DNA of 64,000 nt from contig NC_135825.1 of assembly GCF_964213995.1 (NCBI RefSeq), positions 12,276,001 to 12,340,000 of the forward strand. Reading direction: 5' to 3'. The notes under the pieces are model-generated. The model ran no database searches. It had not been told where the DNA came from and saw only the letters and a program-made list of their open reading frames with translations. The position numbers were made by a program, and so were the translations under genes. This document shows positions 4,393 to 62,995 of this stretch, piece by piece; the first letter of the stretch is position 1; each line of letters opens with the position of its first letter. The stretch comes from Mustelus asterias (Eukaryota).

Positions 4393-4440
4393 TCATTTTC
4401 CCACTTTGGTCCAACTGTGAGAATTGGATTCATTGAGTGA
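4393..4440 (-). CDS. Gene A putative terminal cytoplasmic exon (SLNESNSHSWTKVGK*)
   Basis: Strong acceptor ttttcttttccag, phase 0, short ORF to TGA, ATTAAA/AATAAA signals downstream; same peptide in gene B. Not verified by transcripts. Confidence 0.5.
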   Translation of the reverse strand, partial: SLNESNSHSWTKVGK

Positions 4441-13400: not shown

Positions 13401-16400
13401 GGATTTGGACCCGCTCACCACATTTCAGAGTGAATCAATCTGTGTTGGAGAATCGTTCTGGTCCGTCCCTTATGTTGTCAAATGAGCCTCTTCAGACACT
13501 GGAGTTGCAACACATCAAGGAAGCTGATCAGGAAACGTATACTCCCTGTGTTGTGGGATTGCCCGTCAGTGAGTTGCTTGTCTCTGTTCATTCCTTTGTC
13601 TTGTGGAGCTCAGGGTCTGTGTGGAGGAGGCAGTTGCTGCTATTGGTGCTGTTGGTCACCTGGGTCCTCATCTGAGGCCCAAAATAAAACAGTCTGAGAA
13701 CCACCCATGCTGATCTGATAGATACAATCACCAAAATGTAACCCAGAAATACACATTACCATCTCTGTTGTGAAAGTCAACACCCTGTAAATACTGATAT
13801 TAAACCTTTCACACAATCAGGCGAGAAATAAGCAGTGAGGTTCCAGTGCTTCTTGGCATCTTTCCCAGTCACTTCTTCAGCCTCCCCCATTGCCTCTGTC
13901 TTCTGCCCTTGCTCAGTAACCCGAGCCGCCACAGGTAGATTCCACTAATTGCACTCACTGAGCGATTAATAGACTGAAATTGATAACCCGTCTCTCACTG
14001 GGGGGATTTGATCACACACGGATTGACACATTTAATGTTTCCATGGAGATTTTTATGATCATTTGGAACATTTGGAATATTGTGTCCAATTCTGGTCACC
14101 ACACAACCAGAAGGATGTGGGGGCTTTGGAGAGAGTGCAGAAAAGGTTGACCAGGATGTTGCCTGGTATGGAGGGTATTACCTATGAGGAGAGTTTGAAT
14201 GAGCTGGGATTGTTCTCCCTGGAAAGACAGAGGCTGAGGGGCAACCTGAGAGAAGTTTATAAAATTATGAGAGGTGTGGATAGAGTGAACAGTTGGAAGC
14301 TTTTTCCCAGGGCAGAAATGACAATTAGAAGGACGCACAAGTTCAAGATACCGGGTCAAAGATTCAGTGGAGATGTGCGGGAGAACTTTTTTACACAGAG
14401 GGTGGTGGGCGCCTGGAATGCACTGCCAAGTGAGGAGGTTGAGGCACTTATGTTAGCTATATTTAAGGTTTTATCTTGATAGACGTATGAACAAACAGGG
14501 AATAGAGGAATATAAGCATTGGTAAACGTGATCAGCGCAGGAAGGGCCTGTTCCTGTTCTGTACTGTTCTTTGTTCTTTGTTCTTTGATCCCTTTAAGGG
14601 GCTTTCACCATATTGGATTATTTAATTGTTTAATTTGCCGATTTGTTAACTTTTAATCTGTCAGCTTCACCCTGAATTTTCAGTGGTTTATTTGAAAGAA
14701 GCACAAACTGACACATTGCGGATACATCCGGATGTTGGGGGTTTGACTGGCTTCCCAACATATTGTCAATTTCTGTGTATTTAACCCCTCTATGCTCCCC
14801 CACCCACCCCCACAGCCCCACCATTCAGCGCTAAACCAACAAGGTACAATTACTACCAACTGGCTGCTCACTTCACTTTGTTAATGTCTGACTATTGGAT
14901 TGATCCGGACTGTAAAAATCTGACAGTGTGATATTTAATACATTTCAGAGACAGGGAAATATTCTGAGAATCACAGGTAATGTCTTTCACAATATCCTAT
15001 AGTTAAAGGAATTGTTTGTCTGATTATGTTTGAAGTTCTTGATCAGAATGTTGGACAGGCCACGAATTGAGTTTGTGTCACAAGAGTCGGATTTCCAGAT
15101 CTCTGCCCTCTGGCTGCCAGACTCTGCATTGCTGCAGAGCCTCGGGATATCGGAGCTGTCAATGTTTCCTTGCGGATAAAACATGGATCAGACATTTCAG
15201 TAATAAAGAAAGTCATTGAGAATAATGTACCGTAAGATATTTGCAGCTCCACAGAAAACTTTCGATCGAAGTCAGGTTTATCAATTCCACAGCTGTACCA
15301 TCCTGCATCTCCTGAGCGAAGATCCTCCATCGTAACAGCAAATATTGCTTGTGACTTGTTATCTGTGATCGACAATCTCCCTCGCCGTCCATCTGGATCA
15401 TCCGTTCTCACTAAATATGAGCAATCTTCAGTCCAACTGTTACACCAATATTTCACATATTGTTTGTATTGTCCATTATATTTGCAATTTATTGTGATCG
15501 ATCTTCCCACAATTCCTGTGACTTTCATTTCTGCCCGCAATGCACCTGAAACTGAGGAGACAACATTTCAGCGATTGACCAAGTAAATAACTGCTTAATG
15601 CAGAGAGAAACATTTTAATAAGATTTACCACTGTGTACAGAGGAAACTCTCCAATATCTGTATTCATCATTCTCTTTCTGGTTTGTGATGAATGAAAACA
15701 TGAATATAGAGCCGTGCTGTCAGTGCCAAAGTCCTTCACTGACAATGATTTCTTGTTAATGTACAGTGGCCATTTTTATTGTGTCACCTTGTCACTCAAG
15801 CTTTGCACTGGCGCCTCTGAATGGGTGGATTGCAGGGTCAGGTCCCACTCCAGAGACTGGAGTATAAAATCTACACTAACATTCCAGTGTAATACTGAGG
15901 GACAAGATGGCTCAGATTTTCCTGCCCCCAGTCATGTTCACAGAGCTCGGTGATGTCTTTCAGTTGAAAGGTTAATCTGACACCCAAGTCTGGACATTCC
16001 CTGTCATGGAGAAAATCCCAGGAATGGCTGGAATTTCAAAGGCCGGAGAGTGGGCGTGGGACTGGAATCGGGCTGGCATTCACACATGCGCGATTCGTTC
16101 AACTCTGGATTGCCTTAAATTCATCATCTGCCTCGACTGAAGTGGGATTTTGGATGAACAGAAGTGTGTGTGGAATCTGGAATGTGCAGATTAGAATATT
16201 GAAGAAAAGGTCTGAACTTGGTGGATTCTTATAGACAGCCAGGGTACAACTTCTGGAGAGGGAAGTTACTCTTTGGGAGGGGAAAGTTTCTCTTTGAGAC
16301 AAACTCTGGTGAGCGGTCAGGGCCGGAGTGATTATTTGATTGTTTAAATTATTTTATTTATTAACCATGGCGCTGGGGCACTGAAACAGGCCTTGTGTCC

Positions 16401-18302
16401 AGCTCACCTCCGGGCCGAGCAGCCTGTGGATTTGTTCCCGGGTCACCCGTCCCGACTCACTTTTTAATGCCTTTCCCGACTCAGTGAACACGACCCAGGG
16501 ACGGCGATCTGGGCCTCAGTCTGCCCCACAGGTCAGTGCACCAGGAATGACACATTACTCAGGAAAAAGTGCAATGAAGGTTCCCAAGACTGGTTCCTGG
16601 GATAAGGGGATGGGATGGGAACAGGTTGAGTCCACAAGGTGCATGTTTCCTGTTAGTTGGAAGTATCAGAGGTGATTGAATTGAAATGTGTACAATTCTT
16701 AAGGAGCTTGACAGGATACATTTTGAGCATATATGTACCACCCTACCAGGGCTGGGCATTCTGCATCACAGGATCACAGTCTCGGAATAAAGTGAGAGAC
16801 ACGAAGGATGAGATGAGGAGATTTTTATTCACTCAAGGTGTTGTGAATCCTTGGAATTCTCTGCACCAGAGAGCTTTAGATGTTCGGTCTTGAAGGATAT
16901 TAAACACAGAGATTTATACAATTTTTTGGTCCCAACATAATCGAGGGGTATGGGGATAGTGAAGGAAATACGAATTGAAGTTGGAGATCAGTGAGCATGT
17001 TGCTGAATGATGGAGCAGGCTCAAAGGGACAAAGGCCAACTCCTGTTCCTATTTATAATGTTCTTCTTGAGGAGGAGAGGTGGCAGTATGAATCAAAAAT
17101 TCCATTGCAGACAGCATAATAGCATCAGTTTAGTAAGGGGCTGGTGTGAAAATTTAGATTTACTTTGTTAAATGTTAAAGAATGAAAAGAAAATGATTCC
17201 ATCTTGGATGGACAAAGTAGACAAAGCATGTACAAGTGATTGGGCGGCACGTTGATACAGTGGTGAACACAGCTACGTCACTGCGCCAGGGACCCGGGTT
17301 CAATTCCAGCCTCGGCTGACTGTGTGGAGTTTGCACCTTCTCCCCATATCTGTGTGGGTTTCCTCTGGGTATTCCAGTTTCCTCCCACACTCCAAAGGTG
17401 TTCAGGTTAGGTTGATTGGCCGTGCGAAATTCCCCCTTATTGTCTCAAGATGTATAGTTTAAGAAAATTAATGAGGTAAATATGTGGCGTTACGGGCATG
17501 GGTAACACGCTCTTTGGTGCAGACTCAATGGGCCGAATGGCCTCCTTGTGCACTGTAGGGATTCTATGAAGCAGACTCACTGACAGAGATTGATAAAACT
17601 TTCATCAGATGTAATTTAAATAATAGAAACAATTGCAAACTTGAGGAATATTTTCCTGGAGCCTTTGTTGCCTCTGCAGTCTTCAGAGTCAATTCAATGA
17701 GCAATAATCTGCAATGGATCACAGGCATCTCTCAACATTAGGGAAAGATAATTGGTTACATTTAGTGTGGGGGGCACCACTCCACAGGAATGGGGAAAGG
17801 TGAGGAGGCAGATTTCCATAAACTACCACAGCCGCTCTGAGGATTGAACCCCTGCCATTGGAATCATTCTGCATTGCACTCCAAACAACTGAGCCAATCA
17901 AACCCTCCAGTCTCCAGGATATACTGAGCATGAAACTACATTAACAAGTTAACTTTTATTGGACTGAAATGTGTTGCTTCTGCATTTTAATTATATTAAT
18001 CATATAGCTTTTTAACAAAAATAAATAGGTTAATTTATATTCACAATCAATAATGCCGTTTATTATTTGCTGGGTAAATATTTCTGTGGGACAATACTAT
18101 CAACAAAATAGCTACAACTTTCACACAAATGTCATTAATTTATTTTTGCTGCGTTTTTGTAGCTTTACATGTCTCCAAGTATTTAAATATCTCTGCCGTA
18201 GAAACCATGCACTAGACTTAATCCAACACTCATCATCTCGGGATCCATTTTTGTCCCTTACTCACCAGGCAGAGAAAAGATGAAAAGAATCAGAATCCAC
18301 AT
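4393..18302 (-). CDS. Gene A: spliced pIgR/CD300-like Ig-superfamily receptor, L-V-C2-C2-TM-short tail. Predicted exons 18266-18302, 15231-15551, 11705-12028, 10434-10782, 8111-8210, 4393-4440; about 392 aa
   Basis: All introns are GT-AG with compatible phases (1,1,1,2,0). Exon lengths sum to 1179 nt with no internal stop. Leader, Ig V, Ig C2 and TM signatures occur in the expected order, and each exon has a paralog in gene B. The last exon is the least certain. Confidence 0.8.
6548..6745 (-). mobile_element. Penelope-like 3' fragment with a hammerhead motif at 6605-6641
   Basis: Minus strand CCAT-CTGATGA-A-GGAGC-AGC-GCTCT-GAAA-GCTA-ATGG, followed by the same ..CCAAATAAACCTGTTGGACTTTAACC tail as the 23728 insert. 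Confidence 0.7.
6790..7760. repeat. Complex CAGTG(C/T)-based satellite in the post-TM intron of gene A (shorter paralog at 41990-42308)
   Basis: Hierarchical repeats of CAGTGC, CAGTGT, CCATG and CAGGGGT units. Confidence 0.9.
8111..8210 (-). CDS. Gene A transmembrane exon (LLSSFIWNVIRWGLFTLLVICVISVTWYTRKSQ)
   Basis: Acceptor atttcttccag, donor CAG|GTGAGG; hydrophobic helix followed by an RK stop-transfer; same peptide as gene B. Confidence 0.85.
8950..10010. mobile_element. Probable non-autonomous DNA-transposon-like repeat in the C2-TM intron (paralog about 39715-40780)
   Basis: GC-rich insert with GGCACTGCC/GGCAGTGCC motifs shared with the other MITE-like repeats; termini not firmly resolved. 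Confidence 0.45.
10434..10782 (-). CDS. Gene A membrane-proximal C2-type Ig exon
   Basis: Same C2 motifs, ending ..NCSCVTQIDSFGVAWTESE. The phase-2 donor TG|GTAAGA matches the phase-2 acceptor of the TM exon. Confidence 0.82.
11705..12028 (-). CDS. Gene A C2-type Ig exon 1 (FCRL/PECAM-like)
   Basis: EPVSVPEL..VSVSCESVQGSLPIQYTWY..YYCTASNNQG; acceptor ttcccacag, donor G|GTAAAT; 324 nt. Confidence 0.88.
14063..14590 (+). mobile_element. CR1-type LINE 3' end (paralog about 30715-31250, minus)
   Basis: LEYCVQFWSPH..LERVQKR..LGLFSLE..LRG..FFTQRVV..WNALP plus a (TTCTTTG)n tail. Confidence 0.9.
15231..15551 (-). CDS. Gene A V-set Ig exon, pIgR/CD300 type
   Basis: GRSITINCKY..KYWC-x6-C..GRLSITDN..FAVTMEDLRSGDAGWYSCGI has the B/F cysteines plus the extra C-C' cysteine pair of pIgR/CD300/TREM V domains. 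Acceptor tctcctcag, donor G|GTACAT. Confidence 0.9.
18266..18302 (-). CDS. Gene A exon 1, signal peptide (MWILILFIFSLP)
   Basis: ACAATGTGG start, hydrophobic 12-mer, phase-1 donor G|GTGAGT; joins in frame to (V)SGALRAE of the V exon. Confidence 0.85.
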
Positions 18303-26581: not shown

Positions 26582-26618
26582 ATGTGGATTCTGATTCTTT
26601 TCATCTTTTCTCTGCCTG
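26582..26618 (+). CDS. Gene B exon 1, signal peptide (MWILILFIFSLP)
   Basis: ATG at 26582, donor G|GTGAGT. Confidence 0.85.
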
Positions 26619-29600: not shown

Positions 29601-32600
29601 CATGTTTTCATTGATCACAAACTAGAAAGAGAATGATGAATACAGATATTGGAGAGTTTCCTCTGTACACAGTGGTAAATATTATTAAAATGTTTCTCTC
29701 TGCATGAAGCAGTTATTTACTTGGTCAATTGCTGAAATGTTGTCTCCTCAGTTTCAGGTGCATTGCGGGCAGAAAAGAAAGTCACAGGAATTGTGGGAAG
29801 ATCGATTACAATAAATTGCAATTATGATGGAAAATACAAACAAAACGTGAAATATTGGTGTCACGGTTGGACTGAACGGTGCTCATATTTAGTGAGAACG
29901 GATTATACAGATGGACGGCGAGGGAGAATGTCGATCACAGATAACAAGGCACAAGGAATATTTGCTGTTACGATGGAGGATCTTCGCTCAGGAGATGCAG
30001 GATTGTATCGCTGTGGAATTGTTAAATATTTCTCAGATCCAAAGGTAACCGTGGAGCTGCAAATATCTGAGGGTACATTATTCTCAATGATTTTCTTTAT
30101 TACTGAAATGTCTGATCCATGTTTTATCCACAAGGAAACATTGACAGCTCCGATATCCCGAGGCTCTGCAGCAATGCAGAGTCTGGCTGCCAGAGGGCAG
30201 AGATCTGGAAATCCGACTCTTGTGACACAAACTCAATTCGTGGCCTGTCCAACATTCTGATCAAGAACTTCAAACATAATCAGACAAACAATTCCTTTAA
30301 CTGCAGGATATTGTGAAAGACATTACCCGCGATGCTCAGAATATTTTCCTGTCTCTGAAATGTCTTAAATATCACACTGTCAGATTTTTACAGTCCGGAT
30401 CAATCCAATAGTCAGACATTAACAAAGTGAAGTGAGCAGCCAGTTGGTAGTAATTGTACCTTGTTGGTTTAGCGCTGAATGGTGGGGCTGTGGGGGTGGG
30501 TGGGGGAGCACAGAGGGGGTTAAATGCACAGAAATTGACAATATGTTGGGAAGCCAGTCAAACTCCCAACATCCGGATGTATCCGCAATGTGTCAGTTTG
30601 TGCTTCTTTCAAATAAACCACTGAAAACACAGGGTGAAGCTGACAGATTAAAAGTTAACAAATTGGCAAATTAAACAATTAAATAATCCAATATGGTGAA
30701 AGCCCCTTAAAGGGATCAAAGAACAAAGAACAGTACAGAACAGGAACAGGCCCTTCCTGCGCTGATCACGTTTACCAATGCTTATATTCCTCTATTCCCT
30801 GTTTGTTCATACGTCTATCAAGATAAACCTTAAATATAGCTAACATAAGTGCCTCAACCTCCTCACTTGGCAGTGCATTCCAGGCCCCCACCACCCTCTG
30901 TGTAAAAAAGTTCCCCTGCACATCTCCACTGAACCTTTCCCCCGTTATCTTGAACTTGTGCCCCCTTGTAATTGTCATTTCTGCCCTGGGAGAAAGCTTC
31001 CAACTGTTCACCCCATCGATATCTCTCATAATTTTATAAACTTCTATCAGGTCGCCCCTCAGCCTCCGTCTTTCCAGGGAGAAGAATCCCAGCTCATTCA
31101 AACTCTCCTCATAGTTAATACCCTCTATACCAGGCAACATCCTGGTAAACCTTTTCTGCAATCTCTCCAAAGCCTCCACGTCCTTCTGGTTGTGTGGGAC
31201 CAGAATTGGACAAGTATTCCAAATGTTCCAAATGATCATAAAAATCTCCAAGGAAACTTTAAATGTGTCAATCTGTGTGTGATCAAATCCCCCCAGTGAG
31301 AGACGAGTTACCAATTTCAGTCTATTAATCGCTCAGTGAGTGCAATTAGTGGAATCTGCCTGTGGCTGCTCGGGTTACTGAGCAAGGGCAGAAGACAGAG
31401 GCAATGGGGGAGGCTGAAGAAGTGACTGGGAAAGATGCCAAGAAGCACTGGAACCTCACTGCTTATTTCTAGCCTGATTGTGTGAAAGGTTTAATATCAG
31501 CATTTACAGAGTGTTGACTTTCACGAGAGTGATGGTAATGTGTATTTCTGGGTTACATTTTGGTGATTGTATCTATCAGATCAGCATGGGTGGTTCTCAG
31601 GCTGTTTTATTTTGGGCCTCAGATGAGGACCCAGGTGACCAACAGCACCAATAGCAGCAACTGCCTCCTCCACACAGACCCTGAGCTCCACAAGACAAAG
31701 GAATGAACAGAGACAAGCAGCTCACTGACGGGCAATCCCACAACACAGGGAGTACATGTTTCCTGATCAGCTTCCTTGATGTGTTGCAATTCCAGTGTCT
31801 GAAGAGGCTCATTTGACAACATAAGGGACGGACGAGAATGATTCTCTGACACAGATTGATTCACTCTGAAATGTGGTGAGCGGGTCCAAATCCCACTGGA
31901 GAGTCCAGCAGCGTATTGCTGAGTGAGCCACTGCACACACACCGATCTGTCACCGTGGAGAGTGGCGCATGCACACTGGCCCCTTCACCGCTGGCCTCCC
32001 GATCGCTGGCCATCCCGACCCCCCACCACCATCCGACCACTGGCCGACCAGAGCTCTCCCGGGCCAGCCCCGATCTCCCCTCACCCAGATGGCCAGCGCT
32101 GATCCCCCTCCTCTCTCCCTCTCCCACTGATCCCAGTGCACAGTGTCACTGAAAAACCCCCAACTCATTGAGCCCCCAATAGGCCACACCCTCCAGCATG
32201 CCACCCACCCACGCTAGCACCACCCACTTTGGCACTGCCTGGTGCCTGGTGGGAGGTGCCAGTATTTGTTTTATTCATTTGTGGACATGGGCATCGCTGG
32301 CTGGGTGGCATTTATTGCCCATCCTGAGAGGTTTGCGAGGCCATTTCAGAGGACAGTCAAGAATTAACCACATTGCTTTGGCTCTGGCATCACATGTAGG
32401 CCAGACCAGGAAAGGCTGGTAGATTTCCTTCTTTAACGGACATGAGTGAACCAGATGGGTTTTCCAATAACTGACAATGGTTTCATGGTGATCAGTAGAT
32501 TCTTAATTCCAGATTTTCTTTCTTGAAATCAAATTCCACCACCTGCCATGGCGGGATTCGAACCCTGGTCCCCAGAGCATTAACTGAGATTCTGGATTAA

Positions 32601-35600
32601 TAGGCTAGCGATAACACCACTGGGCCATCACCTCCCTGTGGGTATCTGCATATCTTTGGTTGTGGGAGGAAAATGAAGCACCCAGAGGAAAACCACGCAG
32701 ACACGGGGGGAATGTGCAAATTCCACACTGACCACACAGCCAATGCTGGAATTGAATCCGAATCGCTGGCGCTGTGAGGCTGCAGTGCTAATCACTGTGC
32801 CACTGTGCCCCACTGGGTTGACTGAACAAGCAATCCAATCTAATCCCACCATCTAGTTCTTCATCCAGAGCTCTGTAGGTTACAGCATCTCAAGTTTAAT
32901 CCATTTTGTTTAATGTAATCAGGTTATCCGCCTCTCCCACCCTCGACCACTCTTCCAGGCAGTGAGTTCAGGACCCTCAACATCCCCCGAGTGAAATAAC
33001 CCATTGCCCCAAATCTCCTCTAATCCATTCACCAATTAATTTAAATCTTTAGCTCCTGGTTCATGGTCTGATCTGGAGAGCTGCGATGTCCTGATATAAT
33101 AGTAGACATTGTAGTTCAGGCTGCTGGGAGGGTGGAGAGATATGGAGAGCTGGATGTGTTGGTGAGATTGCAACATGACTGAACCTGAATGAGAGGTTGA
33201 TGAGCTGAAATTCACAGAGTGTTTGATTTTTAGATGTTCAGTCAGTGTCTGAATGTTTGTTTCTTTCCCACAGAACCCGTGTCTGTTCCTGAACTTAGAT
33301 TTTTATCACCACCAAATGCCTCATGTTCTGGGGGCTCAGTGTCCGTCTCCTGTGAGTCTGTCCAGGGATCACTTCCCATTCAGTACACATGGTATGAAAA
33401 GACCCCGTCTGAAGATTCAAAGATCTCTGACACCAATAAACTGGATCTGCATTGTCAATCCTTCAAACAGCAACATCATCAATATTACTGCACAGCCTCA
33501 AATAACCAGGGAGAAAAACCCAGTGAAATGGTGAATGAGTCAGTGATCAACATTTCAGAGAATGACTGCAGTTATTTAACACAAATCAGCAACATTGGTA
33601 AATATCACTTTAAGCTTGAAAAAGTACAACTAATTTTTAAATTAACATCAGTCTGAATAGCTCACAGGTTAAGTTCCATCAGTTGCTTGAAGCAATTGGA
33701 ATGAAAATAGAACTGCATTTATTTAGCACTTTTCAGAACTTCAGGACAGTTTTAAAGTCTGTTCTGGTCAATGCTGGAACTGATTCAGAGCCACTGTTGT
33801 GATGTAGGAAGCTCAGCACCAATTTGTGAGCAATAAGCAATAAGCACGGTAGCACAGTGGTTAGCACTGCTGCTTCACAGCTCCAGGGTCCCGGGTTCGA
33901 TTCCCGGCTCGGGTCACTGTCTGTGTGGAGTTTGCACATTCTCCTCGTGTCTGCGTGGGTTTCCTCCGGGTGCTCCGGTTTCCTCCCACAGTCCAAAGAT
34001 GTGCGGGTTAGGTTGATTGGCCAGGTTAAAAAATTGCTCCTTAGAGTCCTGGGATGTGTAGGTTAGAGGGATTAGTGGGTAAAATATGTGGGGGTAGGGC
34101 CTGGGTGGGATTGTGGTCGGTGCAGACTCGATGGGCCGAATGGCCTCCTTCTGCACTGTAGGGTTTCTATGATTTCTATGATTTCTTCTATGATTTCAAA
34201 GAGCAATGTGACCCTGAGCAGACAATCTGCTGTCTGACAATTGCTGTTTGAGAATACAATAACTCCAGGAGCCGGCTGTGAAGGAACCGTGCTTTTGTTA
34301 CACAAAATGAAAATAAAGAATAACCCCATGCCTGTGGTGAACACAAAGGTCCCAACCAGGACTGAAATGTGAATGGATCCTCTCAAGGTCTTGCTTCGTA
34401 CAAAGCTTGGTATATGAGCTCCACATGATTGGCTAATTATCACTCCCCAGGGAGCTCACATTCAATGAGGCCAACGGGGAGGTCAATGAGTGATTCCCCA
34501 CGCAGATCATGGGGTTTATCACAGAGAGATAAACTTTCCCCACTCCTCCTTTGTTCCCCTTGTCCACTGGGGTTCCCGATGTCCATGGGGTGGGGCCTGA
34601 TATTTTTGGGCAATGGCGGGGGGGATTGTGCATGCAGTGTGGTGGAGACTTTGAATGGGAGGTTTGGCATCGAGGCTGTGGGGAGTGTGAATGGGGATGC
34701 TGGCAGAGAAGGGCAGGTGTTGGGTGGAGTGCCCTGTTCTTTGAGTGGCGGGATGTTGAGGGGAGGCTGACCCTTTACATGAGGGGTGTTCCCCTTGTCC
34801 ACTGGAGGTCCCAGTGTCCATGGGGTGGATCCTGATATCTGTGGGCAATGGGGGGATTCTTTCACTTAACTTTAACTTCAACTTTAAAAATGGTGCCCAA
34901 TCTCTATGGAGACGGCCTTGCCAGCTCAATCAGGCCCCGCCCCACCAGGGTGACAACACAAAACACGCCCCCTGATGTTTTTTTGACAATGGCAGGAGAT
35001 CTGGTGGGGAAAGCAGTCTGTCTTTCTGGAGAGAAACTCACCGGTTTTCAGTCCCAACCTGAGAAGTTGAATTTTTTCTGGAAAATTCCACTAATTGTAT
35101 TAATGTTCCCAACATCTCAAACAAGAAAGTATTCAATTGCATTAGAAGATGTATTGGAGAGATTTCTCTGAACACAGTGGTAATTCCTATTGAAATATAT
35201 CTGTTTGTATGAAGCAATTATTTTCAGTTCAGTTTTTGACCTGTTGTCTTTTCAGCTCCGAGTGCATTGTGGGCAAAAAATAAAGTAACAGGAGTTTTGG
35301 GAAGATCGATCACTATAGATTGTCACTATGACAAATTGTCCCAGTCACATGTGAAAACTTGGAGTCGTCAGTGCTCTGTTTTGGTAAAATCAGACGATCC
35401 AGATGGACGGCGAGGGAGAATGTCGATCACAGATAACAAGACACAAGCATTATTTGTTGTTACTATGGAGGATCTTCGCTCAGGAGATGCAGGATGGTAC
35501 AGCTGTGGAATTGATAAGCCCGGCCTCCTTTCAATATTTCCTGTAAAGCTACAAATATCTGACGGTACATTGTTCTCAGTGATTATCTTTATTACTCTCG

Positions 35601-38600
35601 ACTGAAATGTCTGATCGGTGCTTTATCTGGGAGGAGACATTGACAGCTCCGATATCCCAAGGCTCCGCAGCAGTGCAGAGTCTGGCAGCTAGAGGGCAGT
35701 TAGAACAATGATTATGTTGGAGGAATTGTAATTCAGAGGCCCAGAGTAATGATCCAGAGAGATAGGATCAGATTTATTGCACCTTGGAACCAGCTCTCCT
35801 GGTTAACCAGTTGGCAAGGACCCCACCCATGCTCCTGATGGCTGGAAAATGGACCTTGACCACTTCCCGGATACTCACCAGATACTCACCAAAAGCTCAC
35901 TTCTTCCCCTGTAGTAAATTCCTTCAGCTCATTAAACCTCCACATTCGGTCGGAGTCAGACTCCAGTGCTGGTTGCACTGAGAATGTCTGAATTTATATG
36001 TTCAAAAACAAAGGGACTCAGTACAAAAAGACCAGTTCAAGCCAGTTTCCCCAATTAACTATTCCAGTTGCTGCCAGTGGATAGCTTCTATCGCCCAGCT
36101 CATGCCCTTTGGATGGTACTTATGTCAAAATTTTACTGCCTCGCCCGCCATGGTATCGGAGCGGGTGTGGGGCAGACAACGGAAATGTCTGTTGACCTTG
36201 GCCGGGATTTTACAGTCTCGCTCATTCGAGGCCATAAAACCCCACCCTGAAATTGAAACAGTACTCACACTTAAATGTTAAATGGTACTTACTGTTAAAT
36301 GTTAAATAAAAATACAAACAATGGCCGGAATTCACCGAACCCGTCCGCAGCTGGAATTATCCAGTCCTGCTGCTGTGAATGGAGATTTGGCTGAGCGCCA
36401 AATTCCCTATTCCAACTGGCAGCAGGGGCGGATCACTCGATATCAGAGATTTCAGGTCAAGATTAGATTTTTAGATAGATATTTTAAGTCTCCGTTATCT
36501 CAGCAAACATCCACAGTCTATCTCAGGTCACACTCCAATGCTTGTTACTAACTAATCTGCGATCATGAATATCTGCTGTCCGTGACTGCAATCAATAGAT
36601 ACTACCTGCATTCGGCCAAGCTCTCACTGCCATCTCTCTCTCTCTCTAACACTTTCCCTTCCTCCTCACACCCTGGATCAGGTGTCGAAATATTGGTAAC
36701 ATGAAACTATTTAATTTTTTGGTCATTCTAAAGTTTAAAGTTTTAAAGTTTAAAGTTAAACCTTTATTTAATTCGTGTCACAAGTAGGCTTACATTAACA
36801 CTGCAATGAAGTTACTGTGAAAATCCATTAATGATTGTCTTTTTCCCACAGAACCCGTGTCTGTTTCTGAACTTAGATTTTTATCACCACCAAATGTCTC
36901 ATGTTCTGGGGGCTCAGTGTCCGTCTCCTGTGAGTCTGTCCAGGGATCACTTCCCATTCAGTACACATGGTATGAAAAGACCCCGTCTGAAGATTCAAAG
37001 ATCTCTGACACCAATAAACTGGATCTACATTGTCAATCCTTCAAACAGCAACATCATCAATATTACTGCACAGCCTCAAATAACCAGGGAGAAAAATCCA
37101 GTGAAATGGTTCCAGTGTCAGTGATCCACATTTCAGAGAATGATTGCAGTTATTTAACACAAATCAGCAACATTGGTAAATATCACTTTAAGCTTCAAAA
37201 AATTCAACTAATTTTTGAATTAATGTCTGTCTGAATTGCTCACGGGTTTAGTTCTATTGCTCGAAGCAATTTTAATAAATATAGTATTGCATTTTTTTCG
37301 CTTTTCACAACTTCAGGTCAGTTTTAAAGTCAGTTCTGGTCGATGCTGGAACTGATTCAGAGCCATTGTTGTGATGTAGGAAGCTCAGCACCAATTTGTG
37401 AGCAATAAGCTCCCTCAAGGAGCAATGTGATCATGAGCAGACAATCTGCTGTCTGACAATTGCTGTTTGAGAATATAATAACTCCAGGAGCCGGATGTGA
37501 AGGAACCGTGCTTTTATTGTACAACATGAAAATAAGCAATAACCACACACCTGTGGTGAACACAACAGGTCCCAACCAATACTAAAAGATTAATGGACCC
37601 TCTCAAGGTCTTGCTTTATAAAGGGAATGTCATACAATCTCAATATGGTTGTCTAATTATCAACCCACGGGGAGCACATATTCAGTGATACCAACGATCT
37701 CAAACAAGGAAGTATCCAATTGCATTAGAAGATGTATTGGAGAGATTTCTCTGAACACAGTGGTAAATCCTATTGAAATATATCTATTTGTATGAAGCAA
37801 TTATTTTCAGTTCAATTTTTGACCACTTGTCTTTCCAGCTCCAAGTGCCTTGTCAGCAAAAAATAATGTAACAGGAGTTTTGGGAAGATCGATCACTATA
37901 GATTGTCACTATGACAAATTGTCCCAGTCACATGTGAAAACTTGGAGTCGTCAGTGCTCTGTTTTGGTAAAATCAGATGATCCAGATGGACGGCGAGGGA
38001 GAATGTCGATCACAGATAACAAGACACAAGGATCATTTGTTGTTACTATGGAGGAACTTCACTCAGGAGATGCAGGATGGTACAGCTGTGGAATTGATAA
38101 GCCCGGCTTCCTTTCAATATTTCCTGTAAAGCTACAAATATCTGACGGTACATTGTTCTCTGTGATTATCTTTATTCCTCTCGACTGAAATGTCTGATCG
38201 GTGCTTTATCTGGGAGGAGACATTGACAGCTCCGATATCCCGAGGCTCCGCAGCAGTGCAGAGTCTGGCAGCTAGAGGGCAGTTGGAACAATGATTATGT
38301 TGGAGGAATTGTAATTCAGAGGCCCAGAGTAAAGGTCCAGAGAGATGGGGTCAGATTTATTGCACCTTGGACACTGCTCTGCTGGTTAACAAGTTGGCAA
38401 GGACCCCACCCATGCTCCCGATGCCTGGACAATAAACCTTGACCACTCCCCGGAAAGTCACCAGATACGCACCAACAGCTCACTTCTTCCCCTGTTGTAA
38501 ATTCCTTCGGATCATTAAACCTCCACACTCGGTCGGAGTCAGACTCCAGTGCTGGTTGCACTGAGAATGCCTGAATTTATATGTTCAAAAACAAAGGGAC

Positions 38601-41600
38601 TCAGTACAAAAAGACCAGTTCAAGCCAGTTTCCCCAATTAACTATTCCAGTTGCTGCCAGTTATTAGCTTTCATCTTCCAGCTCATGTCCTTTGGATGAG
38701 ATTTAGACTTCAATCAGTACATGTCGTCAAAATGTTAAACAGTTCTCACAATTAAATCCCAGACAGCGATCAATAGATACGACTTGCAATTGGCCAAACT
38801 CCCACTGCCATCACTCTCTCTCTCTCTCTAACACTCTCCCTTCCTCCTCATACTCTGGATGAGATGTAGAAATATTGGTGACATGAAAGTATTTAATTTT
38901 TTGGTCATTCAATTTGTATCTGAATGTTTGTTCCTTTCCTACAGAACCCGTGTCTGTTCCTGAACTTATATTTCTATCACCACCAATTGTCTCATGTTCT
39001 GGGGGCTCCGTGTCCGTCTCCTGTGAGTCTGTCCAGGGATCACTTCCCATTCAGTACACATGGTATGAAAAGACCCCATCTGAAGATTCAAAGATCTCTG
39101 ACACCAATAAACTGGATCTCCATTGTCAATCCTTCACACAGCAACATCATCAATATTACTGCACAGCCTCAAATAACCAGGGAGAAAAATCCAGTGAAAC
39201 GGTTACAGTGTCAGTGATCAACAGATCAGGGGAGAATTGCAGTTGTGTGACACAGATCGACAGCTTTGGTGTGGCATGGACGGAAAGTGAGTGGTAAGAA
39301 ATACCATGATTTTGACCTAATAACGGTATGACAACAGGTGACACAGGGGCACTGTGGTTAGCAGTGCTGCCTCGCAGCACGAGGGATCCAAGTTCAATTC
39401 TGGCCTTGGGTGACTGTCTGCCTGGAGTCTGCACGTTCTCTGTACCTATGTGAGTTTCCTCCGTGTGCTCCGGTTTCCTCTCTCAGTCAAAGATCTGCAC
39501 AGAAATCTAACCTGTTTCTCTGGAGAGACACCTGTCGGTTTTCTCGCCGGAAACAACACTGTCATTTTTTGCTTAGCTTCCCCCCTACATGGCTAAAATG
39601 AGCCATTATCCTGCTCTCCCAGCATCTGAGCTAAATGTTTTACAGACACACCGACTGCCTCCAGAATAAAGCTGAATCTGTCAACAGCCCCCATAAACAT
39701 AAAACACAAGATTTGGGAAATCTGACTGAAAACTGTTGGTTCTGGCTCGAAGCAGGTTGGCTTTCTCTCCAGAACTTACCACATTCTGTCACAAAAAAAA
39801 CAGCTGGGCGTGTTTCACATCATCATGTAGGGGGCGGGGCCTCGATACACCAGCAAATCCTGGCTGCAGTAAGCTGACAGTGCACAAACATGGCGGCCCA
39901 ATCAAAACAAAATGTTTCCCCCAAATCCCACCACACCCCGGTCAGAGTCGGGGCATCCTCCTATTATGAGCCAGCAATTCTCCCCCCACATCACCCCTCA
40001 GCAGTCAGTGCTGACACCAAGCCCCTCCCCCAAATATCAAACCCTTCCTCCCTTCGTGCAGTCAGTGCTGGCACCACCCCCCTTCCCCCCGAACATTGGA
40101 GCCCTTCCCTCCAACCCTCCACCCACACAGCCATTGCCGACAAACCCAGCCCCTTCCCACAAACGGCTACTCCAGCTCCCCTGTCCGCTCCGGCCCACCC
40201 TCACTTGTAAATGAATAACCCCTCCCCCATGAGACTCCCACTGAGGTCCACCCCGGAACTGCCACTGGTACAGGTTGGCACTGCCAAATTGGCAATTTTG
40301 GGGTGGCATGGTGCCAACTTGGTAGTGCCAACCTGTGCCAAGGGAGAGTGCCAGAGGGCATTGCCAGGCCACTGCCTGACCATATCCCTCTTGCCCAGGA
40401 AGGGGGTTCCCCATCATGTCCAGGTGAACCTGTTGTAAAATGCACCAATATAATGTCACGTTGCCCTGGTTTGAAAACACAGCGAGGGCTCAATATCTGG
40501 GGCGGGGGACGGGGGGGTGGGGAGAGGGGCGGTGGGGGTCGGTGGGGGGTCTTGAATGATATCCAAATATATTAAAATGTTTGTAAATCAGGTTCTCACC
40601 CACTATGGTGGTGAATCTGATGAAGCCACCTGCGCCCTCCAGGTTTTGCCAGATATTGAATCCCCAACAGCATTCCTGTGGTCCCCCAACCCGGGCTCAC
40701 CATCCCACCCAGTGGCTGTGTTTACATAATGCTATTGTGTTAGCTTCCTAACAAGTTGCTGCTTCTGTCAGTGGAAATTCAGACTAAAAAGTGAGCTTTC
40801 TCTGTTTGCCACACCTTAGATGTTGCAGTTTTCATTATTCATGTTAATCACTTCACCGTGAACCCAATCTCATGGAGTTGTGCTTGTCACACTCCAGCGA
40901 TGCCAGATTCCCTTAACCCGGTGTGTTCTGGAGTATCGCTGACAGGAACATTGCATTCACTGTCATCTTCTCCTTCTCAGTTGCCCAGTTTAATACATTG
41001 TTCCCAAACTGAGGCCATCTGCTTCCGGCTGGTTCCGAATTTCCTGTTAGGAGGTGCACCAGGGAATTGTGGGATGATGAAAACAGAAAGTGATGGAAAA
41101 ACTCAGCAGGTCCGGCAGCATCTGTGGAGAGAGGAGCAGAGTTAATATTGAGTGGAATATGATTCTACTTTGAAACAGTGTGGGATGATGTTATTGGAAG
41201 TTTCTTACTCACTGAACAGATATCTCACCAATGTTATGTTGCACCAGACAATGTTTCTGTCCCAATGACCAGTCAATTCATAACATTCTTACTTCTAAGA
41301 TTTTACTCAGCATTCCAGATATACTGAGGAAAGTTAATGAAACCAGCTCCATTTGATCTGTATCTAATGATCATGAAGTTGATCAGTGAAACTTTAGTTG
41401 ATTGCTCCAGCTAACGTGCCTTGTCTGTGCGACGTTGCTACAATAGGTCACAGTGTAAAGAGGAGATTAATGTTTCAAACACGAAGCTGCCTCATTCCCT
41501 TCAAATCATTCTGTATTTCTTCCAGTTTGCTCAGTTCCTTCATCTGGAATGTGATTCGCTGGGGGCTCTTTACCCTCCTGGTGATTTGTGTGATTTCGGT

Positions 41601-43736
41601 CACATGGTACACGAGAAAATCTCAGGTGAGGATTATGGACTTTACAACAATCATTCTGAGCACTTTGTAATTATCACAGATATTGTGCAGAGAAACTTGC
41701 ACTGATGTCAATGTCCACAGGATTAAACACGGGGGGGAATTTTACCTTTCATTTCCAAGTGTGGCAGGGGCAGGAAAAGGGGCGGTGAAGAAATATGGTG
41801 AAGAATATGTGTATAAATGTTGAAGGGACAGGATACTGCCCATCCCACCAGAAATTTCAGTTTCTTAAAGATCAAAATGATATTTTTGAAAGTCAACTTG
41901 ATGCACAAAAGTGAAAATGAAACCCCCCTCCCCTTGCACAACCCCATGCACACCTCCCCCCCGCCCCCCCCGCCGCCCCCCCCATCCCCTGACACTGCCT
42001 CTGGCACTGACCCCTGGCACTGCATGGACGCTGCCCCAGCAGTGACCCTTGGCACTGCATGGACACTGACACTGGGGCACTGACCCCTGGCACTGCATGG
42101 ACACTGACACAGGCATTGACAACTGGCACCGCATGAACACTGACCCCTGATACTGCATGGACGCTGCCCCAGCATTGACCCCTGGTACTGCATGGACACT
42201 GACACTGGCACTGACCACTGGCACTGCATGGACACTGTCCCCGCACTGACCCCTGGCACTGCATGGACACTGACACTGGCACTGACCATTGGCGCTGCAT
42301 GGACACTGTTCTATTTCACGGGATGTGGACGTCACTGGCAAGGGCAGAATTGTTGCCCATCCCTAATTGCCAGATCCGAGTGGCTTGCTTGGCCATTTCA
42401 GAAGACAGTTCGGAATCAAACCCATCGCGGTGGGTCTGGGGTCACATGGAGGTCAGACTGCATAAGGAAAACAGATATCCTTCCGTGAACGATATTAGTG
42501 AGCACTTATGACAATTTATGACCGTTTATCACCATCTCCAACCAACCAGATGGGTTTTTACAACAATTGATGACAAGTTTCCTGGTCACCATTGGTCAGA
42601 TTTTCAATTCCAGATTGATTCATCAATTGAATTTGAATTCATTGCATTTATATTCCACCAGCTACTATGTTGAAATCATGTTCCCAGCACTTTATTATCA
42701 GCCTCTGGATTACTAGCCCAGTGACATTGACACGAAACCACCATCTCTGCAATATCAATACATCAGAATGATACAGGGAAGAATGGAGTAAATTATGTGC
42801 AGACATTGCACAAATTTGCTGCATTTCCTCACACTTGGAGGTTGCTGGGATCGGTGATTGAAGTTTTTATGGGATTCAGTATGGTGGGTACAGAGAAACT
42901 CTTTGCCCAGTGGGGAGATGGAGTACACGGGGCCATAACCCAAAAGTGAGGGCTTAGATACTTAGGAGTGAAATTAGAAAGTATTATTTTCACACAGCTA
43001 GTCATGGAAACCTGGAACTAATCCATCCTAAAATCTGTGGATGCTGGGCCAATTAGAATTCTCACAGCTGGGATTAGATAAGACAGGGACCCAGGTTCGA
43101 TTTTGGCCTTGGGTGAGTGTCTGTGTGGAGTTGCAGGTTGGTGTGACAGGCTCGAGGAGCTGAATGAGCTGCTCTTGTTGCTGTGTTCCTGTGTAACCCA
43201 TCCATGGAAGCACCCTTCCATCTTATCATCCAATCTTATTAAACTGTCAGCAAAAGGAAAAGGAAGGAAATTGGAAAGGTTATAAAAAGGCAACAGGGCT
43301 GACTGTTTCTGGACAGGAACTGGAGGAGATTTCAAATGATTCAGACTGCAGTAAGAGGCTGAGACACAGACCCAATGATGTTGTTGCTGGAAGCACCAAC
43401 TGGACTGTATAAAATATTTTTAGAAACATGGACATAGCAATCAATTTCTCCAGTCAATTGTCCATAATCACAGCTTCAGGGGAACATTGGTTTTCTGTGG
43501 GTAAATAAGGTTATGTGTCTTCATGAAGGATCCAAACGAGTGTTTCCCAGCGCACATGCAAAGGGCGATCAATGTGATCTCGAAACTGCCCCAAATTGTT
43601 GCCATTTCCAGAATTCTTTTCAAGACTGAAATGTCAATTGATGCATTGTTCTCCCAGTCTCAATGAATCTGATGATTTTCTTTTCCAGTCACTCAATGAA
43701 TCCAATTCTCACAGTTGGACCAAAGTGGGAAAATGA
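26582..43736 (+). CDS. Gene B: spliced pIgR/CD300-like Ig-superfamily receptor, L-(V-C2)x3-TM-short tail. Predicted exons 26582-26618, 29752-30072, 33274-33597, 35256-35564, 36852-37175, 37839-38147, 38945-39293, 41526-41625, 43689-43736; about 706 aa
   Basis: GT-AG introns with phase-1 junctions between Ig exons. Lengths sum to 2121 nt in one open frame. Confidence 0.8.
27251..27915 (-). mobile_element. CR1-type LINE 3' end inserted only in intron 1 of gene B
   Basis: RRNLFTQRVVNVWNSLP peptide and microsatellite tail; the site is empty in genes A (near 17630) and C (near 63628). Confidence 0.85.
28935..29065. repeat. 21-bp tandem repeat, about 6 copies, in intron 1 of gene B (about 2-3 copies in gene A near 16250-16300)
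   Basis: Unit CCAAAGAGTAACTTTCCCCTC. Confidence 0.85.
29752..30072 (+). CDS. Gene B V1 exon (pIgR/CD300-type V domain)
   Basis: GRSITINCNY..KYWCHGWTERC..DAGLYRCGI; 321 nt, canonical splice sites. Confidence 0.9.
30715..31250 (-). mobile_element. CR1-type LINE 3' end
   Basis: ALERLQKRFTRMLPG..RRLRGDLIEVYKIM..FFTQRVV. Confidence 0.9.
33274..33597 (+). CDS. Gene B C2 exon 1
   Basis: EPVSVPEL..CESVQGSLPIQYTWY..YYCTASN; ttcccacag acceptor and G|GTAAAT donor. Confidence 0.88.
33845..34197 (+). mobile_element. Full-length tRNA-derived SINE (HE1/V-SINE-like), specific to gene B
   Basis: Box A/B head (TAGCACAGTGG..GGTTCGATTCC), central GTGTGGAGTTTGCAC domain and (TTTCTATGA)n tail. The site is empty near 37410 and 11465. 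Confidence 0.88.
35256..35564 (+). CDS. Gene B V2 exon (shortened C-C' region)
   Basis: APSALWAKNKVTGVLGRSITIDCHY..KTWSRQC..DAGWYSCGI; 309 nt; ttttcag acceptor and G|GTACAT donor. Confidence 0.85.
36852..37175 (+). CDS. Gene B C2 exon 2
   Basis: Near-identical to C2 exon 1; 324 nt; canonical splice sites. Confidence 0.87.
37839..38147 (+). CDS. Gene B V3 exon (near copy of V2)
   Basis: APSALSAKNNVTGVLGRSITIDCHY..DAGWYSCGI; 309 nt; ctttccag acceptor and G|GTACAT donor. Confidence 0.85.
38945..39293 (+). CDS. Gene B membrane-proximal C2 exon 3
   Basis: C2 motifs, ends ..NCSCVTQIDSFGVAWTESE; donor TG|GTAAGA (phase 2). Confidence 0.82.
41526..41625 (+). CDS. Gene B transmembrane exon with N-x-x-R motif
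   Basis: ttcttccag|T TTG CTC..; peptide WNVIRWGLFTLLVICVISVTWYTRKSQ; donor CAG|GTGAGG. Confidence 0.85.
43689..43736 (+). CDS. Gene B putative terminal cytoplasmic exon (SLNESNSHSWTKVGK*)
   Basis: Polypyrimidine acceptor, phase 0, TGA at 43734-43736, ATTAAA near 43853 and AATAAA near 44003. Confidence 0.5.
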   Translation, partial: SLNESNSHSWTKVGK

Positions 43737-44265
43737 AGATTCCGGGATTCCATCCACATCGAAGGAATTTTGCATCCTGGTCAAATATTCAATCCTCATC
43801 CAGCTTTGAACATTTCTTTTAACAAATCTACATAATAGAATGTTTTTTCATTATTAAATGAAGTCTGAAAGATGTGTTGGTTCGGGTGCATTGGCCATGC
43901 TGAATTCTCGCTCAGTGACCCGAACCGGCGCTGGAGTGTGGCGACTGGGGGATTTTCACAGTAACTTCATTGCAGTGTTAATGGAAGCCGACTTGTGACA
44001 CTAATAAAAAAACAAAAACCAACCAACATGATTTCGACCAAACATTGAGTGGAGGAATCAAAATCCAAACCGTGGTTGTGACCTTCAGGTTGTATATCGA
44101 CATCTGGAGAATAATTGATCTGTTTGCTGATTAAATGTCTATATTTCTTGTTTCATATTCTCATCTTACTCTTTGTCAATTTAAAGATGAACAAATTCTG
44201 TTAGGAATTGGCAACATGATTTTTTTCATGCACTGGATATCAGTCGCTCCAATGATATATTCCAC

Positions 44266-50895: not shown

Positions 50896-51390
50896 NNNNN
50901 NNNNNNNNNNNNNNNNNNNNNNNNNNNNNNNNNNNNNNNNNNNNNNNNNNNNNNNNNNNNNNNNNNNNNNNNNNNNNNNNNNNNNNNNNNNNNNNNNNNN
51001 NNNNNNNNNNNNNNNNNNNNNNNNNNNNNNNNNNNNNNNNNNNNNNNNNNNNNNNNNNNNNNNNNNNNNNNNNNNNNNNNNNNNNNNNNNNNNNNCTAGT
51101 TTGATTGGCCAGGTTAAAATTGCCCCTTAGTGGTCCTGGGATGCGTAGATTAGAGGGATTAGCGGGGTAAAATATGTAGGGATATAGGGGTAGGGCCTGG
51201 GTGGGATTGTGGTCGGTGCAGACTCGATGGGCCGAATGGCCTCTTTCTGTACTGTNNNNNNNNNNNNNNNNNNNNNNNNNNNNNNNNNNNNNNNNNNNNN
51301 NNNNNNNNNNNNNNNNNNNNNNNNNNNNNNNNNNNNNNNNNNNNNNNNNNNNNNNNNNNNNNNNNNNNNNNNNNNNNNNNNNNNNNNNNN
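50896..51390. other. Assembly gaps: 200 N (50896-51095) and 135 N (51256-51390) around a SINE fragment
   Basis: N runs in the sequence. Confidence 0.99.
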
Positions 51391-52070
51391 NTCCTCCTCC
51401 TGCTCCAGCTGGTCTTCCCGCTGCTGGGTGATGTTGCGCCGAGCGCAGCAAACGATGATGATGCGTGAAGCACGCACAGGGTCAGACTGGAGGCCCCGCC
51501 CCCCCCCCCCCCCCCCCCAGGAGCGGAACCGCATTTCACACGGGCCATGCACCACTCTCCGATGGACCGGGGGGCTGTGTGGGCCTCATTGTCGCGGGTC
51601 TCCGCCTCGGTCTCGGGCCTCCGCACAGGCATCATCAGCCATGACCTTAGCGGATAACCTTTGTCACCCAGTCGCCATCCTGGCAGCCTGCGCTGGTCTT
51701 CAAAGAGGCCAGGGATGTCTGACTGCCTGAGGACAAAGCTGTCGTGGACACTCCCTGGATGGCGTGCATCGATCTGCGTGATCCACATGAGATGGTCACA
51801 CACGATCTGCACATTCAGGGAGTGGAACCCTTTTCCGTTGACGAATGGCTGCAGTGCTCCATGTGGGGCCCGCAAGGCGATGTTAGTCCCGTCCACTGCT
51901 CCCTGTACATTCAGCATCCCTGAAACGGCAGCGAAGCCTACAGCCCGGGCCTCCTGCTGTGCACGGCCCACATCAAAGTTTATGTACTGTCCTGCCCGGG
52001 CACACAGGGCATCTGTGACCTGCTGCACACATCTGTGCATGGAGGCCTGGGAGATCCCACTGTTGTACCT
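51391..52070 (-). pseudogene. PIF/Harbinger transposase catalytic region (HARBI1-like), degenerate
   Basis: GAVDGTNIAL..NGKGFHSLNVQIVCD..HPGSVHDS..LGDKGYPL motifs; frameshifted towards the C-terminus and running into a gap. Confidence 0.88.
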
Positions 52071-54078: not shown

Positions 54079-54150
54079 TTCACCCCTCCTTTAGGAACCA
54101 AAGGTGGCGGGGTGGATGAAAACAGACAATGACAAAAAAAATAACAGGAT

Positions 54151-58188: not shown

Positions 58189-58210
58189 ATTCTCAGTTAA
58201 TGTATTAAAT

Positions 58211-62958: not shown

Positions 62959-62995
62959 ATGTGGATTCTGATTCTTGTCATCTTTTCTCTGCCTG
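62959..62995 (+). CDS. Gene C exon 1, signal peptide (MWILILVIFSLP); the rest of the gene lies beyond the window
   Basis: Third copy of the leader exon with intact ATG and G|GTGAGT donor; the flanks match those of genes A and B. Confidence 0.8.

What the first reader, a model, noticed from the sequence alone, without database searches (positions are those of the whole stretch)
41526..41625. Transmembrane N-x-x-R motif plus short tyrosine-free tail predicts an FcR-gamma-coupled activating receptor
Seen in sequence: the TM begins WNVIRWGLF in both genes (also 8111-8210), and the predicted tail (RKSQ-SLNESNSHSWTKVGK) has no ITIM or ITAM. Established: an Arg near the outer end of the TM in an N-L-(I/L/V)-R context is how FcalphaRI, GPVI, OSCAR, NKp46 and LILRA pair with FcR-gamma, whereas DAP12-coupled CD300/TREM receptors use a more central Lys. 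Inference: CD300-like V domains are wired to an LRC-type activating TM, which argues against a transcytotic pIgR role. Inhibitory partner genes may lie nearby.
Basis: partly seen in the sequence, partly recalled or inferred. Interest (0 to 1): 0.75.

Follow-up and report, generated by a model that had tools for sequence, protein, structure and literature searches.

The report
Shark MDIR immune receptors, arginine transmembrane
These are two recently duplicated shark genes of the known MDIR immune-receptor family whose membrane segment carries an arginine typical of adaptor-coupled activating receptors, but both lack the usual stalk exon, so they may make mainly secreted protein.

Summary
Both TM exons (41526-41625 +, 8111-8210 -) are identical and read W-N-V-I-R-W. 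One contig from a relative's run joins TM directly to the tail exon, giving the short Tyr-free tail. The genes are head-to-head members of the elasmobranch MDIR family (CD300-like V plus C2-type domains), 51-69% identical to skate MDIR5, which has the same TM class. Across homologues the Arg is invariant (46 of 46) but the Asn is not (5 of 46): this is an Arg TM, not a conserved N-x-x-R motif. ITIM-bearing paralogues are on record for the same species. Two caveats were missed. (1) Both genes lack the family stalk exon. The TM is in frame only through a second donor 25 nt past the last Ig exon; the canonical donor gives secreted products, and one relative's contig skips the TM. (2) Two papers report no FcR-gamma in cartilaginous fish, so CD3-zeta is an equal candidate, and CD300 with FcR-gamma is already known in mouse. 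Most likely a zeta/gamma-coupled activating MDIR plus a soluble isoform; binding untested. New member of a known family.

The parts
41526..41625 (+). Gene B TM exon (phase 2 in, phase 0 out); Arg codon 41557-41559, Asn codon 41548-41550; second possible acceptor at 41535, same phase
   Evidence: joined to tail exon in X20 record 19
43689..43736 (+). Gene B tail exon, coding part (15 aa, no Tyr, stop); candidate polyA signal at 44003
26582..26618 (+). Gene B signal-peptide exon
   Evidence: tblastn with P0022; borders
29752..30072 (+). Gene B V1, CD300/pIgR-like V domain with both extra cysteines
   Evidence: Pfam V-set E 3e-11; PDB hits CD300f and pIgR
33274..33597 (+). Gene B C1, MDIR C2-type Ig domain
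35256..35564 (+). Gene B V2 (shortened loop, one extra Cys lost)
36852..37175 (+). Gene B C2
37839..38147 (+). Gene B V3 (as V2)
38945..39268 (+). Gene B C3, last Ig exon, to the canonical phase-1 donor (TTG|GTGTGG, weak)
   Evidence: joined to tail exon at 39268|43689 in X20 record 18
39269..39293 (+). 25-nt extension ending in a phase-2 donor (GTG|GTAAGA) that puts the TM exon in frame; possible stalk-exon remnant. Use not shown.
18266..18302 (-). Gene A signal-peptide exon (ATG 8280 nt from that of gene B, head to head)
15231..15551 (-). Gene A V domain
   Evidence: Pfam V-set E 8e-12; letter for letter in P0001
11705..12028 (-). Gene A C1
10434..10782 (-). Gene A C2, last Ig exon (canonical end 10459, extended end 10434)
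8111..8210 (-). Gene A TM exon, identical to that of gene B
4393..4440 (-). Gene A tail exon, coding part
62959..62995 (+). Signal-peptide exon of a third family gene that runs out of the window

Best explanation
Genes A (SP-V-C-C) and B (SP-V-C-V-C-V-C) are recent duplicates in an elasmobranch MDIR cluster and belong to its Arg-TM (MDIR5-type) class. In that class a single Arg at the outer end of the TM core binds the paired aspartates of a zeta/gamma-family ITAM dimer (CD3-zeta or FcR-gamma). The receptor's own 19-residue tail carries no signal, and uncharged ITIM-tailed paralogues with near-identical ectodomains are the inhibitory partners. A and B have lost most of the stalk exon. They reach the TM in frame through the donor at 39293 (A: 10434), giving 706- and 392-aa membrane forms, and also make soluble forms (652 and 338 aa) from the canonical donor. 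Shown: gene anatomy, family, Arg conservation, tail phase in relatives, paired paralogues, reading frames. Inferred: adaptor binding, adaptor identity, use of the second donor, activation.
For: Every Ig domain is 51-69% identical to skate MDIR5 and 50-73% to MDIR3; TM exon 16 of 33 identical to MDIR5. Arg in 46 of 46 segments found with the Arg column ignored; no segment scored between 5 and 56 bits. 35 of 37 terminal Arg-type proteins lack ITIM-like motifs; 50 of 53 uncharged-type have them. On a tree of membrane-proximal C domains the two classes interleave (43 Arg-type, 11 ITIM-type rows; at least 4-5 changes forced by starred branches). An N-terminal TM Arg selects Fc-gamma and needs little flanking sequence (PMC1440944); the same Arg site serves zeta (PMC13107469). 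For the second donor: better consensus match than the canonical one (6 vs 4 of 9); such a donor arises within 30 nt by chance in 2.8% of trials; the 8-residue extension resembles the start and end of family stalks (joint p 0.001-0.015, post hoc); spacing to the Arg (57 aa) lies at the short end of the family range 44-154; the TM exon differs at 0 of 99 nt from a paralogue-like contig whose tail exon differs at 14 of 163 (p 0.001), as expected if it is still in use.
Against: No stalk exon found in either intron. No contig shows the 39293 donor in use, and none of 140 stored proteins carries the extension peptide. X20 record 18 joins the last C exon at the canonical donor straight to the tail exon, and at three listed sites its tail matches the window genes while the TM-bearing record 19 differs. 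RefSeq model P0001, identical to gene A over three domains, uses the canonical donor and omits this TM. FcR-gamma is reported absent from cartilaginous fish. Conservation of the TM exon could also come from gene conversion or a very recent stalk loss. In 19 of 46 homologues the -3 residue is Lys, so the segment might sit in the head-group region.
Confidence: 0.5

Rival explanations
1. A and B are soluble (decoy-type) MDIRs. After stalk loss the TM exon is skipped or read out of frame, so the Arg motif is a leftover here and works only in stalk-bearing paralogues such as P0022.
For: Canonical donor is phase 1, TM acceptors are phase 2: product ends V-T-Q (skip) or stops 71 nt before the last junction. 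C-to-tail joint seen in X20 record 18. P0001 omits the TM. 27 of 120 relatives are modelled without a TM.
Against: One contig at depth 3.3, from a relative, and stalk-bearing genes could make the same skip. The in-frame donor is kept in both copies and is the stronger site. TM exon unchanged against paralogues.
Confidence: 0.27
2. The membrane form is made, but the Arg is an interfacial (snorkelling) residue or binds another partner (DAP10/DAP12, or itself), so the receptor is not zeta/gamma-coupled.
For: Arg is flanked by Trp residues and followed by 18 uncharged residues that could span a membrane alone. Asn not conserved. Residue type does not fix the adaptor in CD300s (LMIR8). No binding data.
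Against: Arg invariant over sharks and batoids, never Lys (46 of 46), and confined to the short-tail class, as expected for an Arg-specific site (PMC1440944). Position does not match the central Asp of DAP12 (same paper).
Confidence: 0.16
3. An unseen small exon shifts the tail exon to phase 2, giving a 39-residue tail with an ITIM-like V-K-Y-S-I-L, i.e. an inhibitory or dual receptor.
For: That frame is open and has the motif in both genes.
Against: Direct phase-0 joint in X20 record 19; homologous tails incl. the MDIR5 record align to the phase-0 reading.
Confidence: 0.03
4. A transcytotic polymeric-Ig receptor, as the automatic names of many homologues suggest.
For: V domains hit pIgR structures; gene B has six Ig domains; a soluble form resembles secretory component in outline.
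Against: Alternating V and C2-type domains, charged TM, 19-residue tail without Tyr; PIGR reported absent from cartilaginous fish.
Confidence: 0.04

Closest known systems
Skate MDIR5 (ABC86800.1, P0072) and MDIR3 (ABC86797.1, P0069), modular domain immune-type receptors
   Same: Same signal peptide type, V and C2-type modules (50-73% identity), variable module number. MDIR5 has the homologous Arg TM (W-K-V-G-R-W) and a 19-residue Tyr-free tail; MDIR3 has the uncharged TM with three ITIM-like motifs.
   Different: Window genes have Asn rather than Lys at -3 and lack the stalk exon present in MDIR5; V2/V3 of gene B have a shortened loop lacking one Cys.
NxxR-TM receptors: FcalphaRI, GPVI, OSCAR, NKp46, activating LILR; Xenopus FCRL (XFL TM1) and SLAM-like receptors
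   Same: Arg near the outer end of the TM, Asn three residues before it (in the window), short tail, uncharged ITIM-bearing partners (PMC2413239, PMC6557307, PMC4536121).
   Different: Ectodomain is CD300/pIgR-like V plus MDIR C, not LRC or FCRL C2; no DYT and no acidic C-end residue; tail on its own exon (same exon as the TM in Xenopus TM1 genes); Asn variable in the family; no such receptor reached by the TM profile.
Mammalian CD300/LMIR activating receptors (e.g. CLM-6/LMIR8)
   Same: V domain is closest to CD300f by sequence and fold; paired activating and inhibitory forms; FcR-gamma coupling known for LMIR8 (PMC5974347).
   Different: LMIR8 has one Ig domain and a TM Lys; MDIRs are multi-domain and use an outer Arg.
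pIgR
   Same: Tandem V domains of the same subfamily.
   Different: Interleaved C2-type domains, charged TM, very short tail.

Membership tests
MDIR | Ig domains homologous to skate MDIR domains | tested here: met
   All 9 window domains hit MDIR5 and MDIR3 at 50-73%, E 1e-32 or better; both MDIRs are among the hits
MDIR | Modular, variable arrays of CD300/TREM/pIgR-like and C2-type domains in a multigene cluster | tested here: met
   V-C-C and V-C-V-C-V-C plus a third leader exon; family description as given in PMC3031540 passages
MDIR | Activating-type and inhibitory-type members share ectodomains | tested here: met
   no ITIM-type TM or tail inside this window
MDIR | Cys- and Ser/Thr-rich stalk exon before the TM (feature seen here in homologues, not taken from a paper) | tested here: not met
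   Not found in either intron or elsewhere in the window; the profile finds it in P0005, P0022, P0072, P0011, of which the first three were in its training set. Read as a derived loss.
LRC-type NxxR TM module | [quoted passage not shown] | tested here: met
LRC-type NxxR TM module | Invariant Asn before the Arg | tested here: inconclusive
   Present in both window genes but in only 5 of 46 homologous segments (K 19, D 12, S 6, N 5, T 2, E 1, M 1)
LRC-type NxxR TM module | Consensus DYT at the N-terminus (PMC6557307) | tested here: not met
   Window has S-S-F. Family has Tyr or Phe at Arg-7 in 39 of 46; that this equals the LRC Tyr position is recalled, not from a call
LRC-type NxxR TM module | Acidic residue(s) at the C-end of the TM (PMC6557307) | tested here: not met
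   TM ends W-Y-T-R-K; alignment A2 shows none
LRC-type NxxR TM module | Detectable sequence homology to LRC/FCRL TMs | tested here: inconclusive
   30-column profile against 1.84 billion proteins: 15 hits, 14 elasmobranch MDIR-type, 1 low-complexity repeat; little power at this length
FcR-gamma-coupled activating receptors | Arg-dependent association with an FcR-gamma dimer | not testable with these tools
FcR-gamma-coupled activating receptors | FCER1G exists in the organism | not testable with these tools
   No genome held. Reported absent in cartilaginous fish; I recall later shark gene models named FCER1G-like, unverified
pIgR | All-V ectodomain, uncharged TM, long sorting tail | tested here: not met
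   defining features recalled

The most novel reading that the evidence does not exclude
The MDIR Arg TM is the same ancient exon module as the NxxR TM of LRC, FCRL and SLAM receptors. Asn would be ancestral: it is scattered over sharks and batoids, and its codon is one base from Lys, Asp, Ser and Thr, the other common states. The aromatic residue at Arg-7 would match the Tyr of DYT. That would date the module to the jawed-vertebrate ancestor and add CD300-like V domains as a fourth host family. If sharks truly lack FcR-gamma, the module first worked with CD3-zeta. Genes A and B would further show a stalk collapse that lets donor choice switch between an activating and a soluble form.
Probability: 0.15. 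Interest if true: 0.65.

Novelty: new member of a known kind. Interest (0 to 1): 0.33.

Why it matters
Adaptor use by cartilaginous-fish innate receptors has, in the papers I could search, not been tested. The Arg TM is a family-wide, directly testable candidate: seen in 17 species among 120 hits, plus catshark. It bears on when Arg-type coupling to the zeta/gamma adaptors arose, and it sharpens the question whether sharks have FcR-gamma. Many of these genes are auto-named pIgR-like, which misleads. For the two window genes the practical point is that the membrane form hangs on one unproven splice site. As a system it is the ordinary paired-receptor design.

Tried and rejected
Own-genome search: no genome held, so flanking genes and adaptor genes could not be read. 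Sequencing runs: no RNA holder listed on record; best share of words 0.38; laid contigs come from relatives or paralogues. The joints table was filled by repeat-derived rows (56 not shown), so exon joints were read from the pieces table, itself cut. ITIM-type TM/tail in the window: 10 inhibitory C-termini gave no hit beyond Ig exons. Hidden stalk exon: tblastn of 51 stalks and a profile of 36 found none; enumerated phase-1-to-2 candidates were 6 in B and 2 in A, one shared (25 nt, 40399-40423, no stalk likeness). The TM profile failed to build (one short row) and was replaced. First stalk-remnant test had a one-residue offset (joint p 0.31-0.44) and was redone; the split into head and tail was chosen after seeing the sequence. 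Three donor positions were mis-set by 1-2 nt and fixed. TM profile against PDB: 8 chance hits, E above 1. TM-region word search found only the query. ESM Atlas: best feature score 0.81, below the useful level. Tree holds only 11 ITIM-type rows because the pattern missed many, and has few columns; used only to show interleaving. Earlier findings of the scan: none. The original MDIR paper (PMC3701310) is not held. Complex prediction not run: no adaptor sequence available.

Full report
Observation. The exon at 41526-41625 and its copy at 8111-8210 (-) are identical and encode a hydrophobic segment that begins S-S-F-I-W-N-V-I-R-W and ends W-Y-T-R-K-S-Q. Self-comparison shows they lie in a 91-97% identical inverted duplication, so they are one observation, not two (P of no difference 0.10). 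The tail exon begins at 43689 and 4440. In phase 0 it gives 15 residues without Tyr. In phase 2 it would give 39 residues with an ITIM-like motif, in both genes. Contigs of four public runs from relatives were laid on 38880-44100. X20 record 19 joins TM to tail exon at 41625|43689, phase 0. X7 and X10 probably do the same (inferred from depths); X1 had no cover there. The runs are not on record as RNA; that the contigs are spliced transcripts is inferred from joints at exon borders.

What the genes are. Gene A (-) has leader, V, C, C, TM and tail exons. Gene B (+) has leader, V, C, V, C, V, C, TM and tail. They stand head to head, 8280 nt apart, and a third leader exon lies at 62959. Ectodomain frames are open. 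A search with the last C domain returned 127 proteins; the 120 listed are all from sharks, rays and skates and include skate MDIR3 and MDIR5. All nine window domains match these two at 50-73%. The V domain is closest to CD300f and pIgR by sequence and, for homologue P0130, by fold. Gene A's three domains occur letter for letter in P0001, a Mustelus asterias RefSeq model. These are MDIR genes.

The TM class. With the Arg and Arg-3 columns ignored, a profile found 46 homologous segments in the 120 proteins, all at 56 bits or more and none between 5 and 56. All 46 have the Arg. Position -3 is Lys 19, Asp 12, Ser 6, Asn 5, Thr 2, Glu 1, Met 1. Position -7 is Tyr or Phe in 39. By last TM, 37 proteins are Arg-type with nothing folded behind it (35 without ITIM-like motif), 53 are of the other, largely uncharged type (50 with ITIM-like motifs), 27 have no TM and 3 are fused models. 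MDIR5 is Arg-type and MDIR3 ITIM-type. M. asterias has both: P0005 and P0022 against P0002, P0011 and P0082, all on a contig of the same length. The classes interleave on a tree of proximal C domains (few columns). No ITIM-type exon lies in this window. A model of P0130 places the Arg 9 residues into a 28-residue helix, at the outer end of the hydrophobic core. The TM profile reached only elasmobranch MDIRs and one repeat protein among 1.84 billion; a 30-column profile has little reach.

Family members carry a Cys- and Ser/Thr-rich stalk between the last C domain and the TM. It was not found in either window gene. The TM acceptors are phase 2 and the canonical donor at 39268 is phase 1. Joined to the TM exon it stops 71 nt before the last junction; joined to the tail exon it gives a secreted protein. 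X20 record 18 shows exactly that skip, and at 43733, 43763 and 43792 only record 19 differs from the window, the first change giving the P0022-type tail end. P0001 also uses the canonical donor and leaves the TM out. On the other side, a donor 25 nt further on (39293; 10434 in A) is phase 2, matches the consensus better (6 vs 4 of 9), and restores the frame. Such a donor appears by chance in 2.8% of trials. The eight added residues resemble the start and end of family stalks (joint p 0.015 for 36 stalks, 0.008 for 18 shark stalks, 0.001 for P0022; post hoc). The TM exon is unchanged against record 19 while the tail exon differs at 14 of 163 nt (p 0.001). I put the membrane form at about 60-65% for these two genes. 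No read shows it.

Mechanism. [quoted passage not shown] PMC13107469 (passages) states that TCR-alpha, CD89, NKp30 and NKp46 use an upper-TM Arg with zeta or gamma, and that the role of the polar residues above the Arg is untested. So an invariant outer Arg with a short tail predicts a zeta/gamma-family adaptor whether or not the Asn is kept; I put this at about 0.7-0.8 for the class. Which adaptor is open: PMC4016189 and PMC5742104 (passages; related author groups, older assemblies) report no FcR-gamma in cartilaginous fish. I recall later shark gene models named as FCER1G-like but could not check.

Comparison with what is known. NxxR TMs are described in LRC receptors and in Xenopus FCRL and SLAM families (PMC2413239 passages; PMC4536121 passages; PMC6557307 passages and Discussion), so the module on a non-LRC ectodomain is not new. 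Of the LRC features named in PMC6557307 the window meets the Arg and the Asn, not DYT or the acidic C-end; in Xenopus TM1 genes the tail shares the TM exon, here it does not. It works like an NxxR receptor by prediction but is not shown to be one. A CD300 coupled to FcR-gamma is known in mouse (PMC5974347, abstract and passages). MDIRs are described as a multigene family of activating and inhibitory receptors (PMC3031540 passages). From memory, the 2006 MDIR abstract gives MDIR1 a positively charged TM residue and MDIR5 no activating or inhibitory motif; the paper is not held, so I cannot say whether the MDIR5 Arg was noted. Searches for MDIR, NxxR and shark adaptors or pIgR listed no paper that, by its listing, treats MDIR adaptor use; the library lacks most subscription papers. 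No supplements were read; those of the papers above may hold TM alignments that bear on the homology question.

Verdict. These are new members of a known family with a predicted Arg-type adaptor site. The family-wide Arg and the stalk loss are useful, testable additions, but the design is the usual paired-receptor one. Interest 0.33; the bolder reading (one ancient TM module, perhaps older than FcR-gamma) has probability 0.15 and would merit 0.65.

Noticed in passing
window 35256-35564 and 37839-38147 (+): V2 and V3 of gene B have a 4-residue shorter loop and lack the first of the two extra cysteines kept in V1, leaving one Cys unpaired; the same V type occurs in M. asterias models P0001, P0003, P0005.
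   Followed up: partly
window 39240-39250 (+) and the matching place in gene A: The last C domain of both genes has Cys where other copies have Tyr (C-S-C against C-S-Y), and the second donor would create another Cys at the TM junction; possibly offsets the lost stalk Cys.
   Followed up: no
window 53785-58515: LTR retrotransposon with a 1380-aa open frame on the - strand (protease, RT, RNase H, integrase) and two 305-nt terminal repeats 98% alike: a young insertion between gene B and the third gene.
   Followed up: partly
window 51500-52097 (-) and 46039-47412 / 51926-53784: DDE_Tnp_4 transposase fragment (E 2e-23) in a duplicated block next to assembly gaps at 50896-51095 and 51256-51391.
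   Followed up: partly
window 23760-23964: 205-nt near-perfect palindrome (98.5%) between the two leader exons; may mark the junction of an inversion.
   Followed up: no
P0001, P0005, P0008, P0012 and others: Several RefSeq models fuse neighbouring MDIR genes (internal leader or TM); 9 of 46 Arg TMs are followed by further Ig domains. Annotation of these clusters is unreliable.
   Followed up: partly
window 41986-42309 (+) and about 6790-7760: 36-nt minisatellite in the TM-to-tail intron, about 320 nt in gene B and about 960 nt in gene A.
   Followed up: no
window 43658 (+) and matching place in gene A: A partial duplicate of the tail-exon acceptor lies 31 nt upstream of the used one and runs into a stop or frameshift if used.
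   Followed up: no
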